Shown here: one piece after another, positions 3,261-54,573 of the stretch
How the letters are laid out: every line of letters starts with the position of its first letter
Position numbering within the stretch: the first letter of the stretch is position 1
IMG/VR virus record: IMGVR_UViG_3300044808_000010
Coordinates: 6,891-70,890 of that record
Strand: one strand, 5' to 3'
Length of the DNA stretch: 64,000 nt
Origin: a virus
The notes under the pieces: generated by a model
What the model was told of the DNA's origin: nothing
The model's input: the letters and a program-made list of their open reading frames with translations, nothing else
Database searches by the model: none
Program-made: the position numbers and the translations under genes

Positions 3261-3866
3261 ATGCCGAGAGCAGAAGTTCAGATTTCACCCTTAGTCACCA
3301 TCGTTATCGACGCGCCGGAGGGCTCCAGCGGCGCTGAAACCCAGAAGACGCTTATCGAAGGAATTGCCTTCTGGCAAAGCCTTCCCACGGCCTGCCCAAT
3401 GCCCGGATGCGGCGCGCCGCTCCATTTCACCGCGCGCCATCCGCAGAACTTTCATTACTACGGTCTGCGCTGTGAAGGGCCAAAACCACACGAAGCAAAC
3501 TTAGGAGAGCGCAAAGACGGAACCAGCCTCTATGCCAAGGATGATGGCTGGAAAGACGCCTATGGCGGCGACCAGGAAGGCGGCGGTTCCGCGCCGGCGC
3601 AGGCTACGCAGTCCGCCCCCGCGCAAAATTCCCCCAGTGGGGGACAAGCGCCGCAAGGTGGCATCGCGCCGCCGACGATTGCGACCATCATGCGCACCGC
3701 CGCTGGCAAGACGCCGCCGATGTCCGATGCTAATGCAGTGCTGGCGTTTATCCGCGAGTGCGCCAAGCAGGATCCGGCACTGTCCGGCGCAGCGAACGTG
3801 CAGGAGATTAAACAACTGACCGAGGCGCAGGGCCAGGCGGTCATTACGAACCTGAGCTATTTGTAA
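3261..3866 (+). CDS. hypothetical protein with Cys/His motif and low-complexity linker
   Basis: CPMPGC...YYGLRC..H; RBS AAAGGT. Confidence 0.65.
   Translation: MPRAEVQISPLVTIVIDAPEGSSGAETQKTLIEGIAFWQSLPTACPMPGCGAPLHFTARHPQNFHYYGLRCEGPKPHEANLGERKDGTSLYAKDDGWKDAYGGDQEGGGSAPAQATQSAPAQNSPSGGQAPQGGIAPPTIATIMRTAAGKTPPMSDANAVLAFIRECAKQDPALSGAANVQEIKQLTEAQGQAVITNLSYL
3630..3644. repeat. dispersed palindrome copy 1 TCCCCCAGTGGGGGA
   Basis: In CDS, encodes SPSGG. Confidence 0.95.
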
Positions 3867-6502: not shown

Positions 6503-7392
6503 GTTTACCAAAAGTAGAAGATGCGTTTGAAGTGTGGGTTTCACGGGAAGAAGCGCGGTTCGGTCGCGTTGCGATAAAGCCAATGTGGGATTGGTTAAGC
6601 AAAGCCTTTCTTGCTGGCGCAGAGTACGGCGCAGCGGCGGGCGAGCAGATGCTTTGCGATAGACCCTACGGCCACGAAGGGGAATGCGCCTCAGATCGTC
6701 CGGGGGAATCTGCAAAGGGGGGCAGAGCAGATTCTCCCGTGGAGTGCGGCCAGCGCTGGAATTTCTCTGGTATCGGGTGCCGTTTTGAGGCGGGACATAA
6801 AGGCGGGCATTCGTGGGAGCCGCCGGAGTGCGGCATTCGAGGTTGCGTGTTCGCCTTCGGGCATCGGGGCGAATGCTCGCCCGATCTCCAGCCCCCAACC
6901 TCCCCCGTGGGGGACAGATCGCCCGTCTGCGCAGTCATCTCGGTTCCCGGCGGGCTTCCCTGTACGTTTGCACGGCATCACGCCAGCGCGCATTCGTGGG
7001 CGATGAGCCGCGACTACAAAGTGTCGGCGACAGGCGCAAAGAGTATTCCATCACTTGAGGCGGGAACTTGGGACAATACGCGCTCAAATCCCGACATGGC
7101 GCATTCGGCAGAAGGCTTCGCGCCGCCTTGCGTCACGTCTGACACCGTAGTTCTAACCGACAAAGGCTGGAGTGCCGTCAAAAACATTTGCAAACCGCCG
7201 CTCGGCGTCGTTCCGCAACACATCTGGCGCGAAGCGCGCGCGCGCGACCTCGCCAGAGCGATCCACGAGTATTGCGAGAGCGGAGCAAGGATTCAGCGCC
7301 CGTCGGTGCCACCTGCCACGGCATCACCGAGCAATGTTTACCCGGTTGGCGACTGGATTCGCGAGTTAGGAGAACTATGGGAGACGCTGTGA
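6499..7392 (+). CDS. protein with four Cys/His zinc-knuckle-like repeats and an intein block-A-like segment
   Basis: CDRPYGHEGEC, CRFEAGHKGGH, CVFAFGHRGEC, CTFARHHASAH; CVTSDTVVLTDKGW. Confidence 0.65.
   Translation: MSLPKVEDAFEVWVSREEARFGRVAIKPMWDWLSKAFLAGAEYGAAAGEQMLCDRPYGHEGECASDRPGESAKGGRADSPVECGQRWNFSGIGCRFEAGHKGGHSWEPPECGIRGCVFAFGHRGECSPDLQPPTSPVGDRSPVCAVISVPGGLPCTFARHHASAHSWAMSRDYKVSATGAKSIPSLEAGTWDNTRSNPDMAHSAEGFAPPCVTSDTVVLTDKGWSAVKNICKPPLGVVPQHIWREARARDLARAIHEYCESGARIQRPSVPPATASPSNVYPVGDWIRELGELWETL
6901..6914. repeat. dispersed palindrome copy 2 TCCCCCGTGGGGGA
   Basis: In CDS, SPVGD. Confidence 0.95.
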
Positions 7393-7847
7393 AACCATCG
7401 CCGGGGACAGAAATGGATGATACTGCCGCTGCGCCACACTTGAGGCAGGCTGAGCGAGACGACCCCCAGCAAGGGCATGGGAACACCCCCGCCTCTAGCG
7501 GCGCGTCTCAGGGCGATTTTAGCCCAAACTCAGATTCCGCCAGTTCGCATCTCGCCACAGAAGGCGATCTCGACGCCCTCGCGCCCGAAAATTCCCCCAT
7601 GGGGGACTCCGATGGCATGTCGTGCGACAAGTGTAGCAACCCGGCTGAATTATTGCTCTTGCTCGACGACCTGCCGCCTCGCTGCTTCAACTGCTGCCTA
7701 ATCGCCGCGATGAAGCGTCCCTGCTCGATCTGCGGCCAGCACATCACCGAGGCGATAACCCGCGCCTTGGACCAACAAGGTAAACCCAATACCATAGGCG
7801 TCTGCGCACAGTGCTTTATGAAAGCTGTGGCGGCGCAGAGGAATTGA
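7389..7847 (+). CDS. hypothetical Cys-rich protein
   Basis: Four CxxC pairs in the C-terminal half; GTGA overlap start (start uncertain). Confidence 0.55.
   Translation: MKPSPGTEMDDTAAAPHLRQAERDDPQQGHGNTPASSGASQGDFSPNSDSASSHLATEGDLDALAPENSPMGDSDGMSCDKCSNPAELLLLLDDLPPRCFNCCLIAAMKRPCSICGQHITEAITRALDQQGKPNTIGVCAQCFMKAVAAQRN
7593..7606. repeat. dispersed palindrome copy 3 TCCCCCATGGGGGA
   Basis: In CDS, SPMGD. Confidence 0.95.
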
Positions 7848-7848
7848 A

Positions 7849-8266: not shown

Positions 8267-8277
8267 AGGAGGTTCTG

Positions 8278-9013: not shown

Positions 9014-9390
9014 TGGGTATCATGCCTGACGACGCGTATCTGCGAGACTTGCGCGATCCGTTTCATCCGCTACACCTGAAACGTAACGGCAGTGGGAGTT
9101 GCACAACGCGATATGACTGCTGCGAGCTTTTCGGTTGCGTCTTTGGTCACACGGAAGGCTGCTACGATCATCGCAACCAAGAAACCATGAACTATGGGGC
9201 TGCGATCTTTCGCTCCAAGCAAGGGCAACCGAACGCTCCAACAGTAATGAAACTCGAGTGCTTCAACAAAGAAGAGGCGGCCAAGGCGGAGGCGTACATG
9301 AAAAGAAAACATCCAGACGTGCCATTTTTTGCAACGTGGCTTACATGGCCGCATTTGTCCCCCATGGGGGAGAAAGGAGCGCCTGCATGA
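9013..9390 (+). CDS. hypothetical protein
   Basis: TAATG overlap; ends over palindrome copy 4. Confidence 0.55.
   Translation: MGIMPDDAYLRDLRDPFHPLHLKRNGSGSCTTRYDCCELFGCVFGHTEGCYDHRNQETMNYGAAIFRSKQGQPNAPTVMKLECFNKEEAAKAEAYMKRKHPDVPFFATWLTWPHLSPMGEKGAPA
9358..9371. repeat. dispersed palindrome copy 4 TCCCCCATGGGGGA
   Basis: SPMGE; abuts the RBS of the 9387 gene. Confidence 0.95.
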
Positions 9391-10361
9391 CGCCTGAAGC
9401 CTTAACTGATACCGCGCTCTCAATGGACGAACAAAGCGAACTCGCTGATTGTGAGGCTCGCGTTGAACGCGGGCTTGAAACGGCGCTAGACTGCGTTGAG
9501 GCACTTCGCACAATTCATAAGAAGCGCCTCTTCCGGCAAACTCACGCCACCTTTGAACTCTACTTCGAAGAACGCTGGGGACGAAAAAAGAGCCAGATGT
9601 ATCGCCTGCTCGCCGCCGCCGACGTGCGTGAGAACGTTCCTCAAATTGAAACTGAACGACAGGCGCGAGAGTTGGTTGGCCTCGCTCCGGAGATCCAGCA
9701 GGCCGCCTACACTATCGCGGAACTCGTGGCCCCAAAAGACGCCGAAGATAAGCCAATCATCACGGCATCGCTTTTGAAGAACTGCGTAGAAGGCGTGCAG
9801 GAAGAAGTGCGCGACGTGCTCCAGGGACACATGACGGACGAACACGGCGATCCCCGGCCTTTGTCTCAATTAACACCGCTGATGCAATCCAATGTAGTCG
9901 AGCGCCTGCGAGAGAAAACGCTGCGCCAGGCTGAGAAAATCCGCACCAGCATGGATCAAAGAGCCGCCCGGGCGCACGCCGCCGGCCAGCAAAAGGATGT
10001 CCCCGCCCAGCCCGCGTCAATCTTCTTGATGTACCTGATCCGCGAACTGACGCGCGCGATCGAGTACGTCAAAGAAGAAAAGGGGAGTCTGCATCCGCGC
10101 TACTTCGCGCCCTACCATCTGGCAAAGAGCGCAATTGGTGAAGCGCTGGAAGGTAGCGAGGTGTCGTTACTGCCGGACAAGGTAAGCATTGAAGGGGAAT
10201 GCGAAAGGTGCGGCCACGGCGAGACGGTGCGCGATACCGTGCTGACCGCGCAGCATGAGGGCCACGTCAAGAGTTTACGGATTAAGCTCTGCGACTTCTG
10301 CGTTTCGATCTACGAAAAAGTAATAGACCTTACGCCGAATGGAGAGGTGGTGGCGCGGTGA
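9387..10361 (+). CDS. putative DNA-binding protein (ELADCEARVERGL...RLFRQTHATFELYFEERWG family)
   Basis: RBS AAAGGAG; HTH-like TFELYFEERWGRKKSQMYRLLAAA; C-terminal CxxC pairs. Confidence 0.7.
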   Translation: MTPEALTDTALSMDEQSELADCEARVERGLETALDCVEALRTIHKKRLFRQTHATFELYFEERWGRKKSQMYRLLAAADVRENVPQIETERQARELVGLAPEIQQAAYTIAELVAPKDAEDKPIITASLLKNCVEGVQEEVRDVLQGHMTDEHGDPRPLSQLTPLMQSNVVERLREKTLRQAEKIRTSMDQRAARAHAAGQQKDVPAQPASIFLMYLIRELTRAIEYVKEEKGSLHPRYFAPYHLAKSAIGEALEGSEVSLLPDKVSIEGECERCGHGETVRDTVLTAQHEGHVKSLRIKLCDFCVSIYEKVIDLTPNGEVVAR

Positions 10362-10603: not shown

Positions 10604-10605
10604 CC

Positions 10606-10956
10606 ATGCAAAACGAACAAGCAACCACTGAAAACTTTGCGCTCACGCCCAGACAGCGACCGCTACCGAGCCGCTGGTTTCGCCGCGCTCTCTATTGGCT
10701 GTTTCCGCCGAACTATGATAAGTGGCCCGATACAATGGAAGGACGTCACGTTGTCTCGATAACTACTGACATCTTTCTTGGGTGGCGGGATCGCCTGCGA
10801 ATTCTATGCGGCGGAGTGCTGCGCCTTGATACGATCACACGCTCCACAGGCGAGTCAACGGAAGCCCAACCTTACGGCCCGATGGACAGCACGTCGGCAA
10901 TAGAAATCCGACCGCCGTTCATTACTAAACGTCCCCCAGTGGGGGAGGTGCGATGA
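10606..10956 (+). CDS. hypothetical protein
   Basis: Operon context. Confidence 0.6.
   Translation: MQNEQATTENFALTPRQRPLPSRWFRRALYWLFPPNYDKWPDTMEGRHVVSITTDIFLGWRDRLRILCGGVLRLDTITRSTGESTEAQPYGPMDSTSAIEIRPPFITKRPPVGEVR
10932..10946. repeat. dispersed palindrome copy 5 TCCCCCAGTGGGGGA
   Basis: PPVGE at gene end. Confidence 0.95.
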
Positions 10957-12742: not shown

Positions 12743-12756
12743 TCCCCCATGGGGGA
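12743..12756. repeat. dispersed palindrome copy 6 TCCCCCATGGGGGA
   Basis: Intergenic. Confidence 0.95.
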
Positions 12757-25666: not shown

Positions 25667-26083
25667 TTAGTCCTCTTCTCGGCGCGCCGTGATCGGGCTC
25701 CACGTACCTTCAATTGCTCCGATGTTCAAGTCGAAGTTCGTGCGGTTGCGCGCCAATAGACCGACAAAGGTTTCATCCTTCGCCATCCCGTCGCCAACTA
25801 CCTGAACGTCGCTCTGGAGTTCCAGAAAGCGATTGGAGCCCGCCAACTGAACCAGCGTGCCCTTCACGAGTCTGCGGCCGGCCGGGACAGATGCCAGTTC
25901 AGCGTCAGACATTGGCGCTTCCGTCTCCGTGGTTTGTACGCCTGCGTCGCCAACAGGGAGCGTGCCCGTCTCATCCCCATTCACAACGCTTTTGTCCCCC
26001 ATGGGGGAACTTTTCGGTGCCGCCTTTTTCGCGGTTTTCTTGGCGGCCTTTTTCGGCGCGGCCTTCTTTGCTGATTTCTTCAT
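25667..26083 (-). CDS. protein with Lys/Ala-rich histone-H1-like N-terminus
   Basis: MKKSAKKAAPKKAAKKTAKKAAPK; RBS GGAGG. Confidence 0.65.
   Translation of the reverse strand: MKKSAKKAAPKKAAKKTAKKAAPKSSPMGDKSVVNGDETGTLPVGDAGVQTTETEAPMSDAELASVPAGRRLVKGTLVQLAGSNRFLELQSDVQVVGDGMAKDETFVGLLARNRTNFDLNIGAIEGTWSPITARREED
25995..26008. repeat. dispersed palindrome copy 7 TCCCCCATGGGGGA
   Basis: SPMGD. Confidence 0.95.
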
Positions 26084-34008: not shown

Positions 34009-34022
34009 TCCCCCATGGGGGA
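34009..34022. repeat. dispersed palindrome copy 8 TCCCCCATGGGGGA
   Basis: Intergenic, after KTSC gene. Confidence 0.95.
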
Positions 34023-34261: not shown

Positions 34262-36795
34262 CCCGCAAACTCCGGTATTTTACTATTCATTTCCTGTTCC
34301 GCCTGCGCCGCCAGTTTCATACGCTCCAAACGCTCCTGAAACTGCTGCTCATCCTTCTGCTTCGCCATCTGGAATTCCTGATCCGACATTTGTTTCTGCG
34401 ACTCAGCCGCCAGCGTTTTATCTTTCTCCGCCGCCTTGGCCTGAAGTTCCTTATCTTTGTCAGCCGACTGCTGCGCTTCGATTTGCGCCTTCGCCGCGCC
34501 CATCGTCTGCGCTTTCTCCATATCCGCCTGCTTCACAATATCAGAAATCATCTGAATGCGTTTCGTCAGCACGGACAGCAATAACTGGTCAGGATGCTCC
34601 TTCGAATGCTGAGCTATGATCTCATTGCTGAAAAACTGCGCGGCGTACTGAATGTTTTCACTGTTCGGCAGTAACTCAACGCCTGGCAGCGTCAAAATCT
34701 GCTCAATGACCTGCGGGTTCACTTCTGTTCCCGTCTCCGCCGTAATCACATATCCCTGACCGTTGCGCTCCATGTACTCGCAGGCGTCTTTGATCTTTCG
34801 CAGGATTTGCGTGTTGCGGCGCCGCTCGCGCTCAATGTTGTCCGGGTCGTAGTCAATCCGCGCAAACTGCGCGAACTGGACCCTGAGTTCAACCGGGATG
34901 TCAGGGTTCCACAGAATGCCGGACTGGATCGCCGCCCCGAGGCGCTCTTCCTTCTCCTGATGCGTTACCGGAATATCTGAGCCCGCCACCGTCTGATAAC
35001 TCAAATCTCGCTCAACATCGAGGTTGCGGAACGCCTCAATGTCCTGGTCTTCCCATGACTGATCGCGCTTGAACAAAACTCTGCGAATTTGCTCGTTCGA
35101 CCAGTAGCGCTGAATGAAATTCAGGTGTTGCTTGGCGAATTGAATCAGCGCCGCACCTTTCGACTTCTGCGATGGAATCAGACTCGACAATCCCCTCTGA
35201 GCAAGTAGCTGCTGGCCGCCCAGCGTCCTATTGCTAGGGTCGCCTTGCCCAACTACCGCTCGCGGCGCGCGGCCGATTTCCTCGCCACCCTGCTTAACCA
35301 GCGTCTCCCAGAGAGCAAACAGATCGCTGGAAAGCCTCGAAGGTTGCAAGTCCTCCGTGTACCACTTGATCGGATGGTTTCGCGCCGCGCCTTTCTTCGT
35401 GTATGAAATCCCGCCGGCGCGATTCTTGAAATCCTTCTTGTCCAGAATGAATGGATCGATGATTCGATGCGGGACCGAAGCGTGAGTTCCGTACTCATAG
35501 AATAGCGTAAAGAAAGCATTCGCCGCTTCCTGAATGTCGTTCAACTCCTGCTGACCTTTACCCCAGAAAGACGCGCCATTCATTAGCCAGAGGCCGGAAA
35601 CCAACACTTCGTTGTGGGATTCATTATCTACCCACAGAACCTTCTTCCCGCACATCACCAGATAGAGGCCGACAAACTTCTTCTTTCCAAACGCCTCCGC
35701 AATGGTCTGGCCCTTCTTAATTTCAAACGGGCATTTCTTCGAGACTTTGAAGTCTGCGGGAGCCTTCCAATTCGCTACGGCAGCGGGTGAAATCCACCAG
35801 ATTGACTCCTGCAGCAAGTCATCGTCATTCGCGCCTTGCTTGCCCTTTGTGGCGTCTTTGACCGTGGCGATCGAGCCGGACTCCAAAGCGTGCCACCACT
35901 TCACCGGATCCGTCCACGTCTTCCCGTCGCTCGCCTCCAAGCCCTCAACTACATCGTCGCCGTAGAGTTCTCGGAGTTCGTAGCGCCTTCCGAGGCGGTT
36001 CATGTTGACGAACCTGGCGGGACGCAAATCCCCACCGCGGCAGTTCACTTCGTCAACGCGAAACAGGAATGACGGATAGACGCCAAAGAAGTTATCGACT
36101 TCGGGAGCCTCTTTGTACTCGCCCTGAATCTCGACTTCGGTTTTGTCCCCCATGGGGGAATCGACGTAGGCGGCCATCTTTCCGCAGGCGGGACACTTTT
36201 GCTTCTGGCCGAGGTCGGCACCCTTTTCGGTGGCGAGGTTGACGGCGGGACCGGACGCCCCACACTCAGCGCATGAATACTCCGGCTCGTTTGTCTCGAT
36301 TTCGCTCTTCTGGACGGTCGGCACTTTCATGCTGGAGCGGGCTTTTCGGGCAGTGCAGCCGGACACGCCGAACCAGTTGAAAGAGCACTGGCAATAAAGC
36401 GCCATCTTGTATTCTTCCATATCTGTCCAGAGCGTGTTGTAAACCTTTTCGAAAAGGGATTGGGCGACACGATCCCCGCCCATCTTCGCCGGGTCAGATG
36501 AGTCGGAAGAGATTTCAAGTTGAACGCGGGTGGAGAGCCAGTCGTTGCAGTGCGTCCAGATGACTTGACCGATGATCGGCCACTTCATCAGACCCTCGGA
36601 GGGGACTTCCTGGTAGGAGTTTAGGGACTTATCCCAAAAGCCGTGATAGTCGTTTTGTTCGCGACGGTGAAGCGTCACGCCAAGTGCGGTGCGATACTTT
36701 TCTCCGCCTTCGATGTCCTTCTCCCAACGCTGCGTGCGCACACGAAGCATCTCATCGAATTCCAGCGGCGTCTCTTCGTTGTCTTTAATGGGCAT
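34258..36795 (-). CDS. portal protein
   Basis: 845 aa following TerL; SFWGKG...LNDIQ, RTLGGQQLL; C-terminal coiled coil. Confidence 0.8.
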   Translation of the reverse strand: MPIKDNEETPLEFDEMLRVRTQRWEKDIEGGEKYRTALGVTLHRREQNDYHGFWDKSLNSYQEVPSEGLMKWPIIGQVIWTHCNDWLSTRVQLEISSDSSDPAKMGGDRVAQSLFEKVYNTLWTDMEEYKMALYCQCSFNWFGVSGCTARKARSSMKVPTVQKSEIETNEPEYSCAECGASGPAVNLATEKGADLGQKQKCPACGKMAAYVDSPMGDKTEVEIQGEYKEAPEVDNFFGVYPSFLFRVDEVNCRGGDLRPARFVNMNRLGRRYELRELYGDDVVEGLEASDGKTWTDPVKWWHALESGSIATVKDATKGKQGANDDDLLQESIWWISPAAVANWKAPADFKVSKKCPFEIKKGQTIAEAFGKKKFVGLYLVMCGKKVLWVDNESHNEVLVSGLWLMNGASFWGKGQQELNDIQEAANAFFTLFYEYGTHASVPHRIIDPFILDKKDFKNRAGGISYTKKGAARNHPIKWYTEDLQPSRLSSDLFALWETLVKQGGEEIGRAPRAVVGQGDPSNRTLGGQQLLAQRGLSSLIPSQKSKGAALIQFAKQHLNFIQRYWSNEQIRRVLFKRDQSWEDQDIEAFRNLDVERDLSYQTVAGSDIPVTHQEKEERLGAAIQSGILWNPDIPVELRVQFAQFARIDYDPDNIERERRRNTQILRKIKDACEYMERNGQGYVITAETGTEVNPQVIEQILTLPGVELLPNSENIQYAAQFFSNEIIAQHSKEHPDQLLLSVLTKRIQMISDIVKQADMEKAQTMGAAKAQIEAQQSADKDKELQAKAAEKDKTLAAESQKQMSDQEFQMAKQKDEQQFQERLERMKLAAQAEQEMNSKIPEFAG
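36146..36159. repeat. dispersed palindrome copy 9 TCCCCCATGGGGGA
   Basis: In portal, SPMGD. Confidence 0.95.
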
Positions 36796-39578: not shown

Positions 39579-40071
39579 TCTCCGGGAGTTCTAAGATTTT
39601 GTCCCCCAGTGGGGGAGACTTTTCCGCCGCTGCCCGCTTCGCCTCAGCACGCTGAATTGCCAACAAGGCTTTATCTTCCAACTCGTTCTTCGCCGCATCG
39701 GCTTCGTCTGGATTCACTGTATCATTCGCCTTCCCTTGCATCGTTTTCTTCATGGCAAGGATTTCCTTGGCGGTCTTCGCGAGGTCAGGCAGCGAGGCTT
39801 TCGACACTTTCCGATTAATGGCGTCAAAAATCAGGAACAGCGTCTTGTCCAGCTTCTCTTCGACGTTGCCTTTCCAGATCGTAACAAGTTCGCGCGTCGC
39901 TTCGTCAAGCTCTTCGACTTTCGCGCGCTTCAGCCAGTAGCGACAGGTTCCCGGCGATATCTTTACCTCTGTCGCCGCGCGGCGCAGGTTCCCTTCATGC
40001 TTTTTGTACGCCGCGAAAAACCTATCGCGGTCAGCCTGAGAGTGCTTGGGAATGAAGTTTTGGCCGGGCAT
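39559..40071 (-). CDS. terminase small subunit
   Basis: N-terminal HTH (GNLRRAATEVKISPGTCRYW); immediately upstream of TerL. Confidence 0.7.
   Translation of the reverse strand: MPGQNFIPKHSQADRDRFFAAYKKHEGNLRRAATEVKISPGTCRYWLKRAKVEELDEATRELVTIWKGNVEEKLDKTLFLIFDAINRKVSKASLPDLAKTAKEILAMKKTMQGKANDTVNPDEADAAKNELEDKALLAIQRAEAKRAAAEKSPPLGDKILELPESDSGPA
39602..39616. repeat. dispersed palindrome copy 10 TCCCCCAGTGGGGGA
   Basis: In TerS C-terminus, SPPLGD. Confidence 0.95.
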
Positions 40072-43000
40072 TATTCGATGATCTTGTCGATGCGCTCTTT
40101 CAGGGCATCGCGCTTCTCTGCGGGGAGTTTCTTCAATCCGCGGCGCACCTTCTTCTTCAGCATCGGAATCAGTTCCTCTTTCTGCTCTGGCTTCGCCTGT
40201 TCGACCGCTTCAACCGCCGTCTCCAAGGGCAGGGGAATGAACGACGATTGCAGGGCGCTGAACTTACCCTTTTTGTGCAGTTCTTTCAAGTCGTCTTTCG
40301 CCAGTTTACCTTCTTCAATAAGACGCTCAATCTCGTCATCCTGGTCGTCTCCGGCGCGCTGGCGCTTAACGATTTCTTTCTTTAATTGCTGGCGCTCAGG
40401 ATCAGCGGCTTTGGGAAACCCATTCGGGAACTTTTCATTGTAGTAATCGCGGATGACCTCTTCGGTTGCCGTATGATATTTACCTTCCTGAAGCCCCATC
40501 GAATTCACGAAAGACTCCCACCATGCATCGTCTGTATGGCCTTTCAGGCTAATCGGCATCGGCGACTTGACGAAGCTTTTGATTTGCTCGGCGGCATCAA
40601 CCTTCTGGCCGCGATCATCGCGTCCGGTCAGCGCTGTAATGCCGGCCACAGAGACAGGCGAGAGACGGTGATAACTAAACCCGCGCGGGTCCGAAATCAA
40701 ATGCACAATATCGGCCGGGACGGTACGCACGCCGAACCAGCGCTTTTTATACATGATTCGAAACATGTTCTCCGGTTCCCAGTGATAGTCATCGTCCAGA
40801 AGTTTATTCAGGATGCGCGCTGACGTGTACTGGGTTATCGCCAAAAGCCCGAGCGCGGCCAATTGTTCGCGACCGTGATACTTCACCTGCTTGCCTTCCG
40901 GCGTTGCCAGTATCTCCGGCTTGATCGCCTGGGCGACAAATCTCGCGCGCGCCTCCAAAAAATCCGGTGCCAGCAGGAACACTCGTAGCGCGTCCTGATA
41001 CGACGGATTGCGACCCATGTACTTATAGTTCAACTCGCCAAAGGCCGCGTTGGATTGCTCGGCCGTCATCTCCGCAATCTGGTCGGGGTTCAGGGTCTTG
41101 CCGTAACGCTTCGTATTTCGTTCGTAAGCGTGCAGCGCCATCGTCATCTTCAATTCGGGAATGAAGTCCCGGAAAAGGTAATCCTGATAAGGCTGGAAAA
41201 TTCGACTGCCAAGAATGGGTATCTTGTTCGTCAGGTTTCCGCCCGTCAGCCCTTCGCTGAACTCTTCCATTCCGTCAAAGGTCGCTACTTGAAGGCCGCG
41301 CTTAATCAGCAGACTTTGCGTCGGATCGTCGAAATTCAACTTAATTCGATTCAACGGATTGACCTTGTGTCCGAGCGCGTGAATTCCTTCTTGAACCTGG
41401 TGGAATCCCGAGAGCGAAAACATAGTGCCCTTAATGGTCGTTTGGGCGGTTTTGACGCCGCGCGCAATTGTCGGCAGCGTATCCTTCCCCGAAAACCATG
41501 AGCGCCCCAACACGTTCTTCAAATGTCCATACGCTTCCGGGTGAACCAGCATGTCGCCCTTCATAAAAATAGGCGTCTTGTTCTCTCCCTTCGTGTTCAT
41601 CAACCACTTCCAGCCGCGCAAGGCAGGGTGATCGACAACGCGGTAGTCAGAAAGGTCAAGCGGTTCTTCCTGCATCGCCTTTCGGGCGACCGCCGTAGGC
41701 ATGCTGGGCTGCTTCGTATGAGGGCGAATCACATACTGTTCGGGCGGTTCTTCGCCTTCGGGCACAGCCGCGCCACTTCCGGAGATTTCTACTAATGGTC
41801 GTCCGTCGCTGGCCTTAGAACCATGCAAACTCAGAATGAATTGCCGCGAGAAGATCGCCCGGTCGAGGCTCTGATTGTAAATGGAAAGCAGCGTCCCAAT
41901 GTCCTTCGATAGCGGTTTGCGGCCTATCTGCTCGCCTTCGAAGAAACTGTCAAAGATGCGCTGCTTGGCAAACCGAAAGTTGGGCTCCAACAATCCTCTT
42001 TGTACATCTGCCATCAGATTCTTTGTAACTTCGTTCGAGCGCGACCATGCCTGGTTGACGTAGTTCTCAACGACGCCATTCAGAATCCCGGCCGCGTGCG
42101 CTTCCTGCCAGCGCGACTCGTAATACGACGAGATATTATTCGCCACCGTCTTCTCTTCGTCGGTCAATCTCTGCGCCTCTTCATATCCCATGCGAAGCCG
42201 GAGTTTTGACGCTGCCGCCCGTTGCGCTAAGACAGTGAGGTCGCCGCCAGCCTGAATGTAGTTTGTGATGGCCTCGCGCCGGAGTTTGCTCGGAATCTGC
42301 TTCTTAATCTGCTTCGCGAACTGGCGCGTTTCGTGATCGCTCCGTTGCGCCGCGTACAGGAAGTCGCCAAGGTCTTTCTTGTACTCCGTCACCTCGGGGC
42401 GGGTCAGCACGGCCTCGCCAATGGCTTTCATGCGCGCCAGACTGTTTACTACCCAGTCCTTGCCTTGTGAGGCTTTGTCGGCGGCGTCCAGCGCAGAGGC
42501 GGTCAGGTTGCGCATGCCTTTGCCCTTCGGGAGTTTTGCGATGGCCTCGGACAATTGCTCTATCGTGCTCGCAGCCGGAACGTCGCCTTTGGCCGCAGCG
42601 CCGGGACCAAAACTGAGTCTCTCCCCCATGGGGGAATTTTCGGCATTGCCCTTAAACTTGGCCTGAGCCTCGTTGGCTGTGCCTTCCTCAATGGTGTAAC
42701 CCTGCTTCTCTAATACCTGTTTGTAGCGCTCAAAAGCATGTAGTGGCACCCCGGCCATCGCCTCGCCGTGACGCTGAGTTTTGGTTATCTCTAGCAATTT
42801 AGCGGCGACCACGGCATCATCACCGAAAAACTCCATGAAGTCCCCGAGACGATAGCCTTTGATTGTTTTCTTGGCGACAGCAGCGGGAGCCTCTTCTACC
42901 GCCGGAGTTGCTGTGGCTCCCGTTTTCGCTTTTGCAGCGAAGCGAGGAATGCGTATACCGCGCTCGGTTTGCTCTGCGGCGTCAAAGTCAAATCGTTTAT

Positions 43001-46000: not shown

Positions 46001-47858
46001 CGATGTTCCTGTCCGTCTCGTCGGCGACAGAGCGCAAATAGCTTGACGCTTTTCCTTGCGCCTTGGGATACGCCATCTGAATTAACTGGGCAATCGGATT
46101 GGCCGGATCGCGACCTTCCAATTCCATGTAACGCGCTGCCTGGCGCAGCGTCTCGGCCAACGCCGCCGCCGTACCTTCGCCAACGGGTTGCAAGGTGTCC
46201 CGAATTGCCACTTTCCATGCAGGCATGCCCTCAATGGCCTTTTCACGCTCAAGCACGGAAGCATGGGGCGCGGCCGGAACACTGATATCAATCCCTCGCG
46301 CCTTTAGTCTCTTTTCCAGCGATGGATCGCCTGGCATCACAGTGCGATTCTTTTCTTCAGCGATGATGCGCTGTTGCTCCGCCGCGCGACGACTGGCCGA
46401 CCTGTCCACCGGGATCATTGGATTGCCGCCAAAGCCCGGCTCCGCTGGCAAATTCGCTCTCTCAGCATAAACAGGCTTCTTCACCAGCATGTCGTCGCTG
46501 ATGCCAGCGCGCTTGCGCATGATCGCCTGATAGTCCGGCGACTCGACGATCTGCTCTCCGCGCGCCTTCCGAACCTCATCGTCCGCCGCGGCGTGAACCG
46601 CCATCAGCGCAATCTGCCTTTGCTTGCTGGCCGGCAGGCTTCCTATCGCCGCTAACGTCTGCGGTCCAAAGTGCCAGGCAATGTGCGCGGCGAGTTTGTC
46701 GGGAGCGTTTTTCGCCAGCGTGGCGGTCTGTTTTTGTAGCGCGGCCTCAGCACTTCGTCTTTGCTCGGCAGCAACAAGTTGCTGTCTTTGCTGCTGGATT
46801 TTCTTTGGCAGTTTTTCGACTTCATCTGGTGAGTACGGTGCCCGCAGCATCGCGTCATGCAGGCTCTTTGGTAAAACTTTTCCTTTTGTGGCCGGGTCAT
46901 TCAAAAACTCAAGCCCGATATCTGCAATCCCTTTTGTCAAATCTTCGGGCGAGGCGTCAGGATTTTGCGCAAGAAATGTCTGAATCTTGACAAAGGTTTG
47001 CGCGTTCGCTTCATCTGCCAGCGCCGCATCAACTTTGCCGCCTTTCGTGTTTCGGCGCACAAAGTCAATGTAGGCTTGCTGCGCTTCCGGGCCTGCGTTG
47101 CCGATTTGACCGAGCGCGCCTGCCCATTCCTTATCGAAAGGCTTGATCGGCTCGTCACCTGTCTCGGCGGCCGTGAACTCGTCCGTGGCGCGTGCCGGCT
47201 TGGGCGGCGGCTGATAAGTTGGCGCGGTCGGCAACGCTACCGCAGGGATGCTCGGCGGCACGTCCGGGACAGGCACGGCGGGCGTTGGTGCCGAATCGTA
47301 GGGCTGAACGCCGTATGTCGGAGCGACCGTCCCACCTTGAGGGCTGATCGTATCGCTAGAAGGCGGAATCGTATCGCCGGGAGCCTCACTTTCCCCCATG
47401 GGGGACACGCCCAGTATTTCATCCAGCGAGTCTCGCGAGACATTAACCCTGTCAGCCGGAAGCGCCATGTGCCACGGCTCGTCACTGGGAATATGAAGCC
47501 CGCGCTCGCTCGCGAACTTATTCAACAAAGAATGGAGTTTCCCTTTGTTGGCTGGCGAGCTTGACCAGTCGATCGCTCGTGCCTGCTGATGTGGACTGAC
47601 TTTCACGTACCCGTCATTTCCTTTCGTTGGGTAGCCGTGAGTGTGAAGATAGTTCTGGCGCTCAGCCGTGCGATACCCGCTTTTGATGTAGGCGTCAGGC
47701 ACGCCATTCTCGCGAGCATAGTCCATAAACGCTCTGGCGTGAGCGCCCATGATGGGATTCCTTTCTTCGATTTCGATGAGTTTGCGGTCGGTGCTGGCCG
47801 CAGGAGTAAACTTCGGCGGACTTAGAAGTCGGTCAATTTCTTCGCGGGATTGAGACAT
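40071..47858 (-). CDS. giant polyvalent/ejection protein: M15 peptidase, ART-like and MutS-I domains
   Basis: SGYRT..RQ..L, SPHQQARAID, EPWH (M15); YHET...VSD...TEY (ART-like); YRLGDFMEFFGDDAVVAAKLL...MAGVP (MutS-I). Confidence 0.8.
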   Translation of the reverse strand: MSQSREEIDRLLSPPKFTPAASTDRKLIEIEERNPIMGAHARAFMDYARENGVPDAYIKSGYRTAERQNYLHTHGYPTKGNDGYVKVSPHQQARAIDWSSSPANKGKLHSLLNKFASERGLHIPSDEPWHMALPADRVNVSRDSLDEILGVSPMGESEAPGDTIPPSSDTISPQGGTVAPTYGVQPYDSAPTPAVPVPDVPPSIPAVALPTAPTYQPPPKPARATDEFTAAETGDEPIKPFDKEWAGALGQIGNAGPEAQQAYIDFVRRNTKGGKVDAALADEANAQTFVKIQTFLAQNPDASPEDLTKGIADIGLEFLNDPATKGKVLPKSLHDAMLRAPYSPDEVEKLPKKIQQQRQQLVAAEQRRSAEAALQKQTATLAKNAPDKLAAHIAWHFGPQTLAAIGSLPASKQRQIALMAVHAAADDEVRKARGEQIVESPDYQAIMRKRAGISDDMLVKKPVYAERANLPAEPGFGGNPMIPVDRSASRRAAEQQRIIAEEKNRTVMPGDPSLEKRLKARGIDISVPAAPHASVLEREKAIEGMPAWKVAIRDTLQPVGEGTAAALAETLRQAARYMELEGRDPANPIAQLIQMAYPKAQGKASSYLRSVADETDRNIAESSRAPEGIVDEIGQGVLRGAGGMVVELPKLIIGGKALGALNLPLWGALSSKPEEGVTGLVKGGATGLLYHFGMGATASIGRAGQFLVWTAIPTAQGIASGQKPGTALGQALPMGAFAALGGPVRVREGEAVREAKIGDLKDIQSGKLEVESPEHSQVIRPLEEFAQRPNTERVTGLEKLRDSAGFERMSPETQASIISEIEKLKTEGSDAVQERSAEAVSVGESPGDRGEVGARIPEPREIAHPRDVGDAERRAQETQVVKEAQAETLPSGEAVARAEIDRLLDDEFTKRFEERLSKPVKAGKGETTSLEPTPGERAQIEKEVEAEGAPTQKPTTYFKGDLAEYTGKEEMVAGGKFYIVKMLEGRFKGQEKAVATPPKEVETTTAPKTLTHAEIKKATAAGEPVVTTVKPYKPRSRAVDTQTMSLSQAVRAAGGIKMDRDAGNKGNLSRLTNTETGTTGLVNNRSGTKVEQLAMEMAVEGYRGDWVTVSKAEGTGGLSFDVDPNKFLEAVENDHRGVFKSWSTEKDVDFDAEYRKEFPDEMASYDNLISLMEHPEAGKTYDKVINGEANESDITAFREVAKEYGVSEQDVSHIIAEGEQARSAPEPSRQGPSESPAQQLGFVSEGLEQETAPPPRQPDQRAKLIEEEQARQRAKNPEKAAALETLARLREKGMTVDDYARQGSLIGETPSPDKLKLLRELEGGKGAPLESADGGERAYLRDVMRQYDEGSDNYRIATADDIANEIEPTLRDSNEPWAAKLLTTIEDLRAQRIEDKTRYGDRMGAADEIGERLIDQVSRIANEEAASSRPEKVVPSTSEPTRDALGRAPAPQIEKPHTRQGHADAFLRAEKTIGPDDPRWEQGQKISGIPDTRSRAVWQKNLKEILPEDVESVYHETSLDNARKLIPRLERWNARSHSIDVSDNLDLALGQGGRGVVLEFDPRLVNGFERTGEKPMLGIVKEMGGGTEYRVDSSYVGSVKAVIAKTQRQVDALKKIQGLDKRFDFDAAEQTERGIRIPRFAAKAKTGATATPAVEEAPAAVAKKTIKGYRLGDFMEFFGDDAVVAAKLLEITKTQRHGEAMAGVPLHAFERYKQVLEKQGYTIEEGTANEAQAKFKGNAENSPMGERLSFGPGAAAKGDVPAASTIEQLSEAIAKLPKGKGMRNLTASALDAADKASQGKDWVVNSLARMKAIGEAVLTRPEVTEYKKDLGDFLYAAQRSDHETRQFAKQIKKQIPSKLRREAITNYIQAGGDLTVLAQRAAASKLRLRMGYEEAQRLTDEEKTVANNISSYYESRWQEAHAAGILNGVVENYVNQAWSRSNEVTKNLMADVQRGLLEPNFRFAKQRIFDSFFEGEQIGRKPLSKDIGTLLSIYNQSLDRAIFSRQFILSLHGSKASDGRPLVEISGSGAAVPEGEEPPEQYVIRPHTKQPSMPTAVARKAMQEEPLDLSDYRVVDHPALRGWKWLMNTKGENKTPIFMKGDMLVHPEAYGHLKNVLGRSWFSGKDTLPTIARGVKTAQTTIKGTMFSLSGFHQVQEGIHALGHKVNPLNRIKLNFDDPTQSLLIKRGLQVATFDGMEEFSEGLTGGNLTNKIPILGSRIFQPYQDYLFRDFIPELKMTMALHAYERNTKRYGKTLNPDQIAEMTAEQSNAAFGELNYKYMGRNPSYQDALRVFLLAPDFLEARARFVAQAIKPEILATPEGKQVKYHGREQLAALGLLAITQYTSARILNKLLDDDYHWEPENMFRIMYKKRWFGVRTVPADIVHLISDPRGFSYHRLSPVSVAGITALTGRDDRGQKVDAAEQIKSFVKSPMPISLKGHTDDAWWESFVNSMGLQEGKYHTATEEVIRDYYNEKFPNGFPKAADPERQQLKKEIVKRQRAGDDQDDEIERLIEEGKLAKDDLKELHKKGKFSALQSSFIPLPLETAVEAVEQAKPEQKEELIPMLKKKVRRGLKKLPAEKRDALKERIDKIIE
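42622..42635. repeat. dispersed palindrome copy 11 TCCCCCATGGGGGA
   Basis: In giant gene, SPMGE. Confidence 0.95.
45173..45370 (-). CDS. overprinted small basic protein MPFKSEAQRR...
   Basis: Alternative frame inside the giant gene; RBS GGAGG; N-terminus matches a recurring standalone phage microprotein. Confidence 0.55.
   Translation of the reverse strand: MPFKSEAQRRFLWANHPEIAARWEREYPNQGKLPIHVMSAMLNDAPKKPKSSKKHKPKLYQVAKR
47392..47405. repeat. dispersed palindrome copy 12 TCCCCCATGGGGGA
   Basis: In giant gene, SPMGE. Confidence 0.95.
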
Positions 47859-47867: not shown

Positions 47868-49352
47868 TTACTTCTTGCGGCGCTTCACGGCGGCCTCGAC
47901 TTCGGCTTGGGTTGGATGCGAACCGTCAGCATTCACGGAATTGGCGTAATACGCACGAAACTCGGCGTCGGTCATCGCGCGGAGACTTCCTGCGGTGATG
48001 CCTGACTTGGCTGTCTTCCCTGTTGGCGGGGTCGGCACGCCTACATTCACGCCGCCTTGCGGCGCTTTATCGACTTCCGCGAAGAGCGCGGTGGCAGCGG
48101 ATCGCTTCTCGCGCGCTTCCTTCCTAAGTTTTTCAATATCAGCCGGATCAAGTCGCGCGCTAAATGGCTTTCCCTCTTCGGCTTTAATTGAACCTTCAAT
48201 GCCGTCAGCGACACTTTGCAACGCGTAAGCCTCCGCGCGCTTACCCTCAATCCCGGCATCATACTTCGATTTTCCAAGATTCAAGGACGCCTGCTCAACC
48301 TGTAATCGTGCGGCGTTTATCTGAGCGTTGAAAGTCTGAATCTGTTTCGAGAAGTCGAATTTCTCGCGACTGAATTCGTAATTCCGTTTGCTGCTCAGAG
48401 TTTCCCCTGTGTCCAAGTCACGCTTCTCGCCAACGCCTGTAACAGCCTTCTCGCCTTCCGGCGTTTCCACGTAAGCCCAGTTACCCTTCGGATCACGTTG
48501 CAACGTGTATTTCAAATGCCCGTCAGGGTCTTCGATTTCGACGCGAGGCTGCCCCTTACCGCGTGCGGCGTTGTAGGCGGTCGGATCAATATTCAGTCCT
48601 GCTTCCTTGGCCTGGTTCAGCAATCGAGCATGCGTGGCGTCCCCTGGATCGATGTAGCCCAGCCGATCCAACTGCGCCAGCAAAATGCGCTGTGTGCTCG
48701 TCAGCGATTTCGTCTTCGCCGCGGTCTGGCGCTCTGTCAGATTCTTATAACCAAGATCGGTCAGATTTGACCGCCGCGTGATATTCGAGGCGGTGTTCGC
48801 GTACTTTTCCGCCCGAACAACATCTTCTTCCCGCTGCTGCACGTCATACATCTTCTTGATTGCGCCGGGGAGTTTAGGGCGAATCGCGCCGGAGACGGCG
48901 CCGCCGCCAAATGCTCCAAGTTGGCGCGCGACATCTGCCCACGTGCCCCCTGCCGGAGCCTGCCCCATAGCGTAAGCGCCCATCTTGAGCGCGGCTTTGA
49001 AGCGGTTCTCCTTTTCTACGGGCGCATCCCGGGTCGCCTTCAATTGATTCAGAGCGCGGGAAAGTTCGGCTAATGCTGGATCGTCATAACCGGCTGGCTG
49101 CGGCGCTGGCGCGGAAGATCCGGCGGGCGCGACAGGCGTGTCCCCCATGGGGGAAGAAATCGGCGGACGTGGAAAGGCGCGAGGGTTTGGGGAAGCATCG
49201 CCGCCAACTGGCATGACTGCATAAGTATTACCCACAGGCACGACCGCCGTGGCCGCCACGGGCTCTTTCGGGGAAGGTAAACTCATCGCCACGTCTTGCT
49301 GACGCCGCTTTGGATCGTCTTCCCGCCTGCGTTGGACTGCGTAAACGCTCAT
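47868..49352 (-). CDS. putative DNA-ejection protein
   Basis: Pro-rich N-terminus, Gly-rich amphipathic segment, coiled coils; start uncertain (49286, 49352 or 49424). Confidence 0.6.
   Translation of the reverse strand: MSVYAVQRRREDDPKRRQQDVAMSLPSPKEPVAATAVVPVGNTYAVMPVGGDASPNPRAFPRPPISSPMGDTPVAPAGSSAPAPQPAGYDDPALAELSRALNQLKATRDAPVEKENRFKAALKMGAYAMGQAPAGGTWADVARQLGAFGGGAVSGAIRPKLPGAIKKMYDVQQREEDVVRAEKYANTASNITRRSNLTDLGYKNLTERQTAAKTKSLTSTQRILLAQLDRLGYIDPGDATHARLLNQAKEAGLNIDPTAYNAARGKGQPRVEIEDPDGHLKYTLQRDPKGNWAYVETPEGEKAVTGVGEKRDLDTGETLSSKRNYEFSREKFDFSKQIQTFNAQINAARLQVEQASLNLGKSKYDAGIEGKRAEAYALQSVADGIEGSIKAEEGKPFSARLDPADIEKLRKEAREKRSAATALFAEVDKAPQGGVNVGVPTPPTGKTAKSGITAGSLRAMTDAEFRAYYANSVNADGSHPTQAEVEAAVKRRKK
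49141..49154. repeat. dispersed palindrome copy 13 TCCCCCATGGGGGA
   Basis: SPMGD. Confidence 0.95.
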
Positions 49353-49485
49353 TGACGTGGAAACTAGCATGAGACTTGCTTGCTGGGCAATGATTACGTT
49401 ACAGTGCGCGCGATCGCAAGCCATGCGATCCTCCTTTGGTTGGTGGTTAGCGGGGACGGTCTGACACAGCCGCCCCCGCCTTTTT

Positions 49486-54124: not shown

Positions 54125-54573
54125 AACCCCTCCAAATCTGGCTCCTGCGGTTTCCCGTCCTTGCTCCAAACCAGATTCATTTCCCCTGGCTTGAACTCCG
54201 GGCACGTATCCGCGTGCATTACACAGTGCTCGATCGCGGCGTCGTTCGACTTGTAAACCTTCCCGCCCAACGCTCGAATCTTTTTCACGATGTCGATGAT
54301 CTCAAATCGCATCCGAAACTGCTGCGGACGTTTCGCCGGGCCTTTTACGCGCCCTTTCCTGATTTTTGGGTCCTTGCGCCGCGCCAGAAGTTGATCAATT
54401 TGCGTCTGGCTGACCCGGCCTCTGCTGGGCTGCCGGGCAATCAACCCTTTTTTCATCAGTTGGTAAAACGTGATGTCGGTGTACTTCGTGATTTCCGACA
54501 TCTCGTCCAGCGAGTACGTTTTTTCTGGCTCACTTTCCCCCATGGGGGACTTTTCGGGTTTCGGTTGCGTCAT
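54121..54573 (-). CDS. MerR/excisionase-like HTH DNA-binding protein
   Basis: TYSLDEMSEITKYTDITFYQLMKKGLI; first gene of the late leftward block. Confidence 0.6.
   Translation of the reverse strand: MTQPKPEKSPMGESEPEKTYSLDEMSEITKYTDITFYQLMKKGLIARQPSRGRVSQTQIDQLLARRKDPKIRKGRVKGPAKRPQQFRMRFEIIDIVKKIRALGGKVYKSNDAAIEHCVMHADTCPEFKPGEMNLVWSKDGKPQEPDLEGL
54536..54549. repeat. dispersed palindrome copy 14 TCCCCCATGGGGGA
   Basis: SPMGE near the start of the HTH gene. Confidence 0.95.

What the first reader, a model, noticed from the sequence alone, without database searches (positions are those of the whole stretch)
9358..10361. Candidate cognate binding protein: a palindrome copy sits on the leader of an HTH-like gene
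Seen: copy 4 (9358-9371) abuts the RBS AAAGGAG, 15 bp before ATG 9387. The gene encodes a 324-aa protein with ELADCEARVERGL...ALRTIHKKRLFRQTHATFELYFEERWGRKKSQMYRLLAAA...TERQAREL. Unverified recollection: phage proteins of this family often contain palindrome-encoded peptides such as SPIGD, STMVD or LPIGN just after this helix pair, implying the family co-occurs with genome-specific palindromes. Inference: protein plus dispersed sites form an autoregulated two-part system that I do not know to have been characterised.
Basis: inference. Interest (0 to 1): 0.8.

Follow-up and report, generated by a model that had tools for sequence, protein, structure and literature searches.

The report
Phage protein with twenty palindromic sites
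A soil phage carries twenty copies of one 14-15-letter mirror-symmetric DNA word, and the gene beside one copy encodes a DNA-binding protein whose relatives each keep their own such word inside their own gene, so this protein very probably docks on all twenty sites.

Summary
TCCCCCATGGGGGA occurs 10 times exactly in the window and 12 times in the 70.9-kb phage record. With centre variants there are 20 sites; chance expects about 0.3. One site ends 15 nt before ATG 9387 of a 324-aa gene (P0001).

In 48 of 80 distinct relatives' genes the loop after the helix pair is a perfect 14-28-bp palindrome, against 2.1% of control windows. It is always single copy there.

The palindrome's half-site co-varies with the 14 residues after the conserved Trp (r=0.50; no permutation reached it). 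It does not co-vary with equally close neighbouring segments. The coupled positions (W+4, 5, 8, 9) lie on one helix face.

P0001 has lost the loop. It shares [K/Q]-S-x-[V/I/M]-Y-R with the only two relatives whose loops hold this same palindrome, and those two are otherwise among its most distant relatives. A homodimer is predicted.

Best reading: P0001 binds all 20 sites as a dimer, in the manner of KorB or Noc. Autoregulation and the biological role are inferred, not shown. No binding data exist.

This scan has noted gene-embedded sites and phage palindrome lattices before, on other DNA. This phage joins the two.

The parts
9387..10361 (+). Gene for P0001 (324 aa): N-terminal helical DNA-binding domain, long helices, C-terminal Cys4 zinc-ribbon domain
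   Evidence: ORF and translation. Family HMM E=1e-35 and the only hit in the genome. AlphaFold model pLDDT 85.6.
9414..9731 (+). N-terminal domain (residues ~10-115), a widespread family unnamed in Pfam
   Evidence: 6602 representative clusters at E<=1e-3. No Pfam or NCBIfam hit. Domain model pLDDT 90.3.
9579..9620 (+). Putative recognition helix region GRKKSQMYRLLAAA (residues 65-78, W+1..W+14)
   Evidence: This segment alone co-varies with the half-site in relatives. It shares the K-S-x-M-Y-R signature with L058 and L021.
9999..10358 (+). C-terminal domain (residues 205-324) with invariant C272, C275, C302, C305; predicted dimer interface
   Evidence: Alignment A3. It occurs alone as P0008 and P0051. 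Interface residues 206-249.
9358..9371 (.). Site (14 bp, exact), 'copy 4': abuts the RBS of P0001, inside the 3' end of ORF 9013-9390 (SPMGE)
3630..3644 (.). Site, 15-bp variant TCCCCCAGTGGGGGA, in ORF 3261-3866
6901..6914 (.). Site, centre variant TCCCCCGTGGGGGA (SPVGD in ORF 6499-7392)
7593..7606 (.). Site, exact, in ORF 7377-7847 (SPMGD)
10932..10946 (.). Site, 15-bp variant, last codons of ORF 10606-10956, 6 nt before ATG 10953
12743..12756 (.). Site, exact, intergenic between two minus-strand genes
25995..26008 (.). Site, exact, in minus-strand ORF 25667-26083 (SPMGD)
34009..34022 (.). Site, exact, intergenic, 5 nt after the stop of ORF 34028-34261(-)
36146..36159 (.). Site, exact, in the 845-aa protein (SPMGD); relatives have SPTGD or SPLGD at the same column
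39602..39616 (.). Site, 15-bp variant, near the 3' end of ORF 39559-40071(-)
42622..42635 (.). Site, exact, in the 2595-aa protein (SPMGE)
47392..47405 (.). Site, exact, in the 2595-aa protein (SPMGE)
49141..49154 (.). Site, exact, in ORF 47868-49424(-) (SPMGD)
54536..54549 (.). Site, exact, in ORF 54121-54591(-) (SPMGE)
55597..55611 (.). Site, 15-bp variant, inside the N6_N4 methyltransferase gene 55293-56822
58169..58182 (.). Site, centre variant TCCCCCACGGGGGA (SPVGE on the minus strand)
61974..61988 (.). Site, 15-bp variant TCCCCCACTGGGGGA, near the 3' end of ORF 61734-62006

Best explanation
P0001 is a dimeric, sequence-specific DNA-binding protein. Its helix-turn-helix (helices 56-64 and 68-83) reads the half-site TCCCCCA. 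It occupies all 20 copies of TCCCCCA(S)TGGGGGA spread through the phage genome, including the copy that abuts its own ribosome-binding site.

It belongs to a large, uncharacterised phage family. In most members the cognate palindrome is written inside the gene, in the loop just after the recognition helix. There it probably acts as an intragenic operator, blocking elongation as C.Kpn2I does. In this phage lineage the loop was lost from the gene and the site was multiplied across the genome by point substitutions in tolerant protein loops. That turns a self-addressed regulator into a genome-wide binder that works like KorB or Noc.

Shown: the sites, the family palindromes, the covariation and the signature match. 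Inferred: binding itself, the dimer, and any effect on transcription. My guess for the role is a global roadblock or organiser of the phage genome, with feedback on its own operon.
For: (1) The genome has 20 sites with invariant arms. Only 2 TCCCCC and 8 GGGGGA hexamers lie outside them, against a crude composition expectation of 31 and 23.

(2) 48 of 80 distinct family genes (46 of 77 without the loci that were fetched by the palindrome) hold a perfect palindrome with arms of 7 or more in the loop window. Control windows give 78 of 3744. Most lie 56-62 nt after the Trp codon. The same DNA is kept in different reading frames, for example SPIGD and SNWTQ, or GTMVP and GNHGSQ.

(3) Half-site similarity tracks the 14 residues after the Trp, r=0.50. 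None of 2000 permutations or 1000 permutations reached this. The partial r given the rest of the domain is 0.52. The upstream 14 residues give r=-0.03, the downstream 14 give -0.07 and the N-terminal 30 give -0.07. The correlation holds in every stratum of overall identity (0.48-0.58). The strongest couplings are W+8 with base -7 (z 13.1), W+9 with -4 (13.4), W+5 with -6 (9.8) and W+4 with -8 (8.3), which is one helix face.

(4) P0001 reads K-S-Q-M-Y-R at W+4..W+9. Of the 80 genes, only L058 and L021 have [K/Q]-S-x-[V/I/M]-Y-R. Both carry TCCCCCATGGGGGA in their loop, yet they rank 61st and 80th of 80 in identity to P0001 outside the helix.

(5) 4 of the 59 IMG/VR stretches that hold this 14-mer have it in a family gene's loop.

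(6) P0001 is the only family member in the genome.

(7) Homodimer prediction: ipSAE 0.48, best of 3 controls 0.00. This mark was reached by 20 of 30 solved homo-pairs and by 1 of 23 proteins solved as single chains. The runs share at least 59% of their contacts, and the partner's pLDDT is at least 64.

(8) The site in the 845-aa protein is kept as SP[T/L]GD in 6 relatives of 58-82% overall identity, and it arose without an indel.
Against: No binding experiment exists for any family member.

Fold searches give no significant HTH or ParB match. The best PDB hit is the Raf1 alpha-domain at E about 1, and P1 ParB has probability 0.1. HTH_ParB is sub-threshold in 1 of 8 relatives.

The nearest-helix prediction for P0001 is mixed: TTCCAC, TGTCTC, TTCCAC, TTCCCCC.

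L021 and L058 were fetched because they hold the palindrome, so they are not a blind sample.

Relatives have one site only (6 of 6 records). Family membership therefore does not predict a lattice.

The site before P0001 is missing from the two relatives of the upstream ORF.

Six sites have an extra central base, which a rigid dimer would tolerate poorly.

Sixteen or 17 of the 20 sites lie in coding DNA with no promoter nearby, so the regulatory role is a guess.
Confidence: 0.68

Rival explanations
1. The palindromes act as RNA hairpins that set mRNA stability, processing or termination. P0001's position beside one of them is chance.
For: The hairpin is stable, -7.2 kcal/mol for the 14-mer and -9.7 for the 15-mer. 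Six of 20 sites lie within 40 nt of a stop codon, against a random mean of 2.0 (P=0.012). The extra central base would simply sit in the hairpin loop. The copy at 12743 is followed by a T run on the coding strand.
Against: The arms are identical in 20 of 20 copies with no compensatory variants, and the centre itself is self-complementary. Most copies lie deep inside genes and lack T runs. In the family, the palindrome co-varies with specific protein residues, which an RNA role does not predict.
Confidence: 0.1
2. Another factor reads the sites: a different phage or host protein, a methyltransferase or restriction system, or a host-type iterated palindrome like HIP1 copied by the phage.
For: The phage encodes an N6_N4 methyltransferase and a large methyltransferase-like protein at the ends of the record. 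About 10% of family members (12 of 123) are fused to Dam or N6_N4 methyltransferases. The centre contains CATG and CCATGG. The host is unknown.
Against: Fourteen specified bases is far beyond usual methyltransferase targets. The first 120 genome stretches that hold the word each have only one copy, although that scan was cut off. No other IMG/VR contig is enriched. P0001's helix signature matches the two relatives whose loops hold this word.
Confidence: 0.12
3. The palindromes are small mobile or recombination-generated inserts that spread in-frame and have no binding function.
For: Relative to two homologues, the upstream ORF has 4 extra residues exactly at the site. Ten of 11 (or 11 of 12) in-gene 14-mers are in one reading phase, with A-rich flanks.
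Against: In the 845-aa protein the site replaces residues with no change in length, and it is kept in relatives. The flanks share no extended repeat beyond A-richness. The phase bias is expected if only the SPMG[D/E] reading is tolerated.
Confidence: 0.06

Closest known systems
KorB and its OB operators on IncP plasmid RK2 (ParB family)
   Same: A dimeric HTH protein reads one palindrome repeated about a dozen times over a 60-70-kb mobile genome. I recall, from no call, that the site tolerates a central S base and that there are 12 copies. It silences genes globally (abstract of PMC11790492).
   Different: KorB has the ParB CTPase N-domain and slides as a clamp. P0001 has no such domain: Pfam finds no ParB_N. 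Most of the sites here are inside coding DNA. No KorA-like partner was identified.
C.Kpn2I controller protein (XRE HTH) with its site inside its own coding region
   Same: [quoted passage not shown] The authors suggest that this arrangement is widespread (PMC6237814, abstract and passages). This is the likely mechanism for the gene-embedded palindromes of P0001's relatives.
   Different: It is a different fold family. [quoted passage not shown] In P0001 itself the site has left the gene.
17-bp palindromes of Cluster O mycobacteriophages (TGTTCGGNNNCCGAACA, 34 copies in Corndog)
   Same: These are phages of about 70 kb with more than 30 dispersed sites of invariant dyad symmetry. About a third of the sites are in coding regions, few are at promoters, and they are predicted to bind a dimeric protein. 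Their function is unknown (PMC4351075, passages read).
   Different: They have a 3-bp spacer and more of them are intergenic. No binder has been proposed from covariation. I did not test whether those phages have a P0001-type gene.
Stoperators of Cluster A mycobacteriophages (L5 repressor gp71)
   Same: A single phage protein binds about 25-30 dispersed sites to silence the genome by blocking elongation (partly recalled; described in the Cluster O paper's discussion).
   Different: Stoperators are asymmetric and oriented with transcription. The sites here are symmetric, and the central C/G of the 15-mers shows no orientation bias, 3 against 3.
ParB-parS and Noc-NBS
   Same: Palindromic 14-16-bp sites are read by an HTH. 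I recall that Noc sites are scattered over a chromosome and that some parS sites lie inside parB genes. The Atlas structure search gives TM 0.59 to ParB HTH_ParB clusters.
   Different: There is no ParB N-domain, no ParA partner was seen, and the HTH_ParB match is sub-threshold.

Membership tests
Unnamed phage N-terminal DNA-binding domain family (this report's HMM; PHROGs 4571 and 1733 are weak matches) | Conserved domain ...RLYR..TFE.YC.ERWG.S...AYRLI.AA.V...ERQAR.L | tested here: met
   hmmsearch E=1.1e-35 for P0001. phmmer found 6602 representative clusters.
Unnamed phage N-terminal DNA-binding domain family | Perfect palindrome of 14 bp or more encoded in the loop after the recognition helix | tested here: not met
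   P0001, P0002, P0003, P0009 and P0010 lack the loop. It is present in 48 of 80 relatives.
ParB/KorB/Noc family | ParB N-terminal CTPase/Srx domain (PF02195) | tested here: not met
   P0001 has no Pfam hit at E<=1, and none of 123 relatives has one at E<=0.001.
ParB/KorB/Noc family | HTH_ParB DNA-binding domain (PF17762) | tested here: inconclusive
   One of 8 relatives hits at E=0.072, 13.7 bits against a cut-off of 22.6. Atlas structure TM is 0.59. Foldseek gives P1 ParB a probability of 0.1.
ParB/KorB/Noc family | Palindromic cognate sites read by a dimer | tested here: met
   Sites. Predicted homodimer. Binding itself is not testable with these tools.
Pfam DUF3102 (PF11300) | Match to the Pfam model above the gathering score | tested here: not met
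   P0001 has no hit, and 0 of 18 further relatives scanned at E<=1 have one. The only link is Atlas neighbour clusters in which 10-23% of members carry DUF3102.
R-M controller (C) proteins, XRE HTH | XRE/HTH_3-type domain next to R-M genes | tested here: not met
   P0001 has no HTH_3 or XRE hit. One of 123 relatives hits HTH_26.

The most novel reading that the evidence does not exclude
This family is a naturally reprogrammable HTH with a readable recognition code: residues W+4, 5, 8 and 9 set bases -8, -6, -7 and -4. Its operator normally travels inside the gene. P0001 shows the next step. The operator is expelled from the gene and sown through the genome, giving a CTPase-less, KorB/Noc-like lattice that marks or silences the phage's own DNA. 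The same family may be the unidentified binder behind other phage palindrome lattices.
Probability: 0.35. Interest if true: 0.85.

Novelty: new variant of a known kind. Interest (0 to 1): 0.72.

Why it matters
Dispersed palindromes in phage genomes, such as those of Cluster O mycobacteriophages, have lacked a binder and a function. This report offers a concrete candidate protein, a family of thousands of members, and a residue-to-base code. All of it can be tested with oligonucleotides and purified protein.

If the code holds, the cognate site of any family member can be read from its own gene. That would give a large set of orthogonal DNA-binding parts. It would also show how a self-addressed regulator can evolve into a genome-wide organiser.

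Tried and rejected
Pfam, NCBIfam and PHROGs on P0001 gave nothing usable.

PDB sequence and profile searches found only chance hits to Fap1.

Foldseek against the PDB, with the whole model and with the N-terminal domain, found nothing at E<=0.001. BFVD returned only uncharacterised proteins.

GenBank phages, searched by tblastn with P0001's N-terminal part and with P0058, gave no match.

Close relatives' DNA was not found. IMG/VR was searched with P0001 and with the capsid protein and JGI metagenomes with alignment A4. P0073 and P0041 gave 2 and 0 loci.

The host search by pattern in genome contigs was cut off at 120 single-copy stretches and says nothing about the host.

The 20 sites are spaced no differently from random (cv 0.79 against 0.93). 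Enrichment near starts is not significant, 4 against 2.1, P=0.15. Intergenic enrichment is not significant, 3 of 20, P=0.19.

For sequencing runs, only the probable source soil metagenome was listed, and no RNA holder was listed.

None described this family, although these searches are limited. An earlier scan note cites a 2014 paper on a protein that binds a palindrome in its own gene. I could not identify that paper. I did not ask for supplementary files.

My gene map is a home-made codon-usage caller. The counts of coding against intergenic sites depend on it.
Full report
WHAT IS THERE

The window is bases 6891-70890 of a 70,890-bp IMG/VR virus record that is 97% complete by CheckV. The only sequencing run listed as holding it is a soil metagenome, which is probably its source.

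TCCCCCATGGGGGA sits at 9358-9371. GAAAGGAG follows directly, and ATG 9387 opens a 324-aa ORF, P0001.

The word occurs 10 times exactly in the window. With up to 2 mismatches there are 13 matches. Shuffles gave a mean of 0.28 and a maximum of 2, and 0 of 100 reached 13. The whole record has 12 exact copies, and the reversed control has none. All 12 CCCATGGG octamers of the genome lie inside the full 14-mer.

Allowing 2-3 central bases gives 20 sites: 12 with CATG, 6 with the 15-bp centre CA[C/G]TG, and one each with CGTG and CACG. The arms TCCCCC and GGGGGA never vary. Outside the sites only 2 TCCCCC and 8 GGGGGA remain, against a crude composition expectation of 31 and 23.

WHERE THE SITES LIE

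I used my own codon-usage gene map, which gives 93 genes and 92.5% coding. On that map, 16 of the 20 sites are inside genes and 4 are intergenic. If ORF 6499-7392 is accepted, the split is 17 and 3.

Ten of the 11 in-gene 14-mers are in the phase that reads S-P-M/V-G-D/E. With the ORF 6499-7392 copy this becomes 11 of 12, binomial P=5e-5. The flanks are A-rich on the coding strand.

Copy 4 is therefore not in a leader. It encodes ...SPMGE... at the C-terminus of ORF 9013-9390, whose stop overlaps ATG 9387. Genes 7377-11771 are packed with no gaps.

The spacing of sites is indistinguishable from random. Six sites lie within 40 nt of a stop codon (P=0.012) and four within 40 nt of a start (P=0.15).

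THE PROTEIN

P0001 has no Pfam or NCBIfam match, and only a weak PHROG match, 4571 at E=0.056.

Full-length relatives are few: P0002 at about 50% identity, P0003 and P0009 at about 41%, and P0010-P0012 at about 36%. The first ~100 residues, by contrast, hit 6602 representative clusters.

The AlphaFold models are confident, pLDDT 85.6 for the whole protein and 90.3 for the domain. They show a helical N-domain with a helix-turn-helix-like pair (56-64 and 68-83), long helices, and a C-terminal beta/zinc-ribbon domain with four invariant Cys.

Fold searches were weak. The best PDB match is the Raf1 alpha-domain (probability 0.85-0.9, E about 1), and P1 ParB has probability 0.1. BFVD returned uncharacterised phage proteins. 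Leads towards a ParB-type HTH are an Atlas structural TM of 0.59 to HTH_ParB clusters, with DUF3102 on 10-23% of the members of neighbouring clusters, and one sub-threshold HTH_ParB hit among 8 relatives. DUF3102 itself was never matched: not by P0001 and by 0 of 18 further relatives scanned at E<=1.

Twelve of 123 relatives are fused to Dam or N6_N4 methyltransferases. L207 is fused to MT-A70.

A homodimer is predicted with ipSAE 0.48, best of 3 controls 0.00. This mark was reached by 20 of 30 solved homo-pairs and by 1 of 23 proteins solved as single chains. The runs share at least 59% of contacts, and the partner's pLDDT is at least 64. The interface runs through residues 9-51 and 206-249.

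THE FAMILY CARRIES ITS SITE IN THE GENE

Aligning 96 relatives showed loop peptides such as SPMGD, SPIGD, LPIGN, GPIGP, EPMGS, RPMGL, CPIGH and STMVD. In each, the first and last residues have reverse-complementary codons.

I then fetched DNA for 101 IMG/VR loci. A family HMM found a gene in 100 of them, and these gave 80 distinct domain sequences.

In 48 of the 80, the window from the conserved Trp to just past the ERQ motif holds a perfect palindrome with arms of 7-14 bases. Equal-sized control windows in the same loci gave 78 of 3744, or 2.1%. Three of the 80 come from loci that I had fetched because they hold the window's palindrome. Without them the count is 46 of 77.

Most palindromes start 56-62 nt after the Trp codon. 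They fit the pattern TG-N4-C[A/C]AT[T/G]G-N4-CA. The same DNA appears in different reading frames.

Each is single copy in its locus, 48 of 48. It is also single copy in 6 of 6 whole records of 30-71 kb, even allowing 2 mismatches.

Four of the 59 IMG/VR stretches that contain TCCCCCATGGGGGA have it in such a loop.

COVARIATION

This analysis used the 48 genes with palindromes. Similarity of the outer six half-site bases correlates with similarity of the 14 residues after the Trp, r=0.50. It does not correlate with the rest of the domain, r=-0.03. The partial r is 0.52, and 0 of 2000 permutations reached it.

Segments equally close on the DNA show nothing. The 14 residues upstream give r=-0.03, the 14 downstream give -0.07, and the N-terminal 30 give -0.07. 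Leave-one-out prediction from the nearest helix gives 0.77 identity, against 0.45 at random.

The correlation persists in every stratum of overall identity, 0.48-0.58. Mutual information peaks at W+8 with base -7 (z 13.1), W+9 with -4 (13.4), W+5 with -6 (9.8) and W+4 with -8 (8.3). That spacing of i, i+1, i+4, i+5 is what one face of a recognition helix would give.

It is still correlation, not binding.

LINKING P0001 TO THE WINDOW'S PALINDROME

P0001 and its four closest relatives lack the loop. P0001 is the only family member in the genome.

Its helix is GRKKSQMYRLLAAA. Of the 80 genes, only L058 and L021 share [K/Q]-S-x-[V/I/M]-Y-R at W+4..W+9, and both carry TCCCCCATGGGGGA in their loop. 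Outside the helix they rank 61st and 80th of 80 in identity to P0001, so the match is not common descent.

A plain BLOSUM ranking of helices is less clean. Its top hits are TTCCAC, TGTCTC, TTCCAC and TTCCCCC.

HOW THE SITES AROSE AND HOW OLD THEY ARE

At the protein level, the 845-aa protein's SPMGD is SPTGD or SPLGD in six relatives of 58-82% overall identity. It is DE..GE in more distant relatives, with no length change. So it arose by substitution, not insertion, and it is conserved.

By contrast, two relatives of the ORF upstream of P0001 (59-61% identity) are 4 residues shorter exactly at the site.

CONTEXT IN RELATIVES

In 9 of the 80 loci a Mu-like transposase lies next to the family gene. 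In 8 of these it lies directly downstream, and a MuB-like gene follows. In 8 loci an integrase lies nearby. Other neighbours are Erf, SSB, a ParB-like protein and large terminases. This is an early or regulatory setting in mostly temperate phages.

In the window, P0001 lies among a DnaB-like helicase (5096-6502), exonucleases and a RuvC-like ORF.

READING

The best-supported account is that P0001 binds the 20 sites as a dimer.

For the relatives, the in-print precedent is C.Kpn2I. Its site lies inside its own gene and blocks elongating polymerase (PMC6237814, abstract and passages).

For the lattice, the nearest systems are KorB-OB (PMC11790492, abstract only) and the unexplained 17-bp palindromes of Cluster O mycobacteriophages (PMC4351075, passages). 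Details of RK2's 12 OB sites, of Noc-NBS, of L5 stoperators beyond that paper's discussion, of the lambda ori inside gene O, and of N15 are recalled, not taken from calls. PMC7205306 was seen only in a search listing. PMC13229309, read as an abstract, proved not to bear on this.

Whether P0001 represses, organises the genome or recruits the phage's methyltransferases remains open.

EARLIER NOTES OF THIS SCAN

Other agents noted, on other DNA, phage-wide palindrome lattices with a supposed ParB-like binder (e1-6097083, e1-3438255, e1-6044497). They also noted genes that carry their own site (e1-154920, e1-5536228, e1-1098793). I read these after my own tests. They are unchecked AI notes and add no independent evidence.

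What this window adds is a helix-specific covariation test and a case that joins the two phenomena.

Noticed in passing
window 55293-56822 (+) and 54857-55306 (+): The 509-aa protein matches only the C-terminal part of N6_N4_Mtase (E=1.6e-7, residues 24-85). The gene just upstream is NinG-like. One 15-bp palindrome lies inside the methyltransferase gene.
   Followed up: partly
L281:6-497 (record start) and window 62702-64000 (record end): Both ends of the record are open reading frames. The left piece matches the C-terminal parts of very large phage methyltransferase-like PHROGs. The contig therefore probably breaks one big gene of a circularly permuted genome.
   Followed up: partly
G000 about 2628-2790 (outside the window, in L281): A GCTGCT-rich imperfect repeat, TGCTGCTTATGC seven times, lies inside the 248-aa ORF 2173-2919. 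It would encode an Ala-rich low-complexity stretch.
   Followed up: no
L262:2809-3498, L210, L276: Some family genes have two loop palindromes in tandem, for example SPIGDKMSPMGDK. This suggests duplication, or a site switch in progress.
   Followed up: no
L225, L234, L240, L254, L258, L262, L278, L023: In eight loci the family gene sits directly upstream of a Mu-like transposase (phrog_310), with a MuB-like protein (phrog_296) further downstream. This is the place that ner holds in phage Mu (the Mu gene order is recalled). In a ninth locus, L264, the transposase lies upstream instead.
   Followed up: partly
window 34258-36795 (-): The 845-aa protein has relatives of 44-82% overall identity on contigs of up to 75.8 kb in Logan and ENA assemblies. 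One 63,199-bp contig length is shared by P0170 and the P0001 homologue P0010, so the phage group exists elsewhere. It has a CxxC...CPxC motif just before the palindrome site.
   Followed up: partly
whole genome: Isolated half-sites are scarce, 2 TCCCCC and 8 GGGGGA outside the 20 palindromes, as if stray half-sites were selected against. The expectation is only a mononucleotide estimate.
   Followed up: partly
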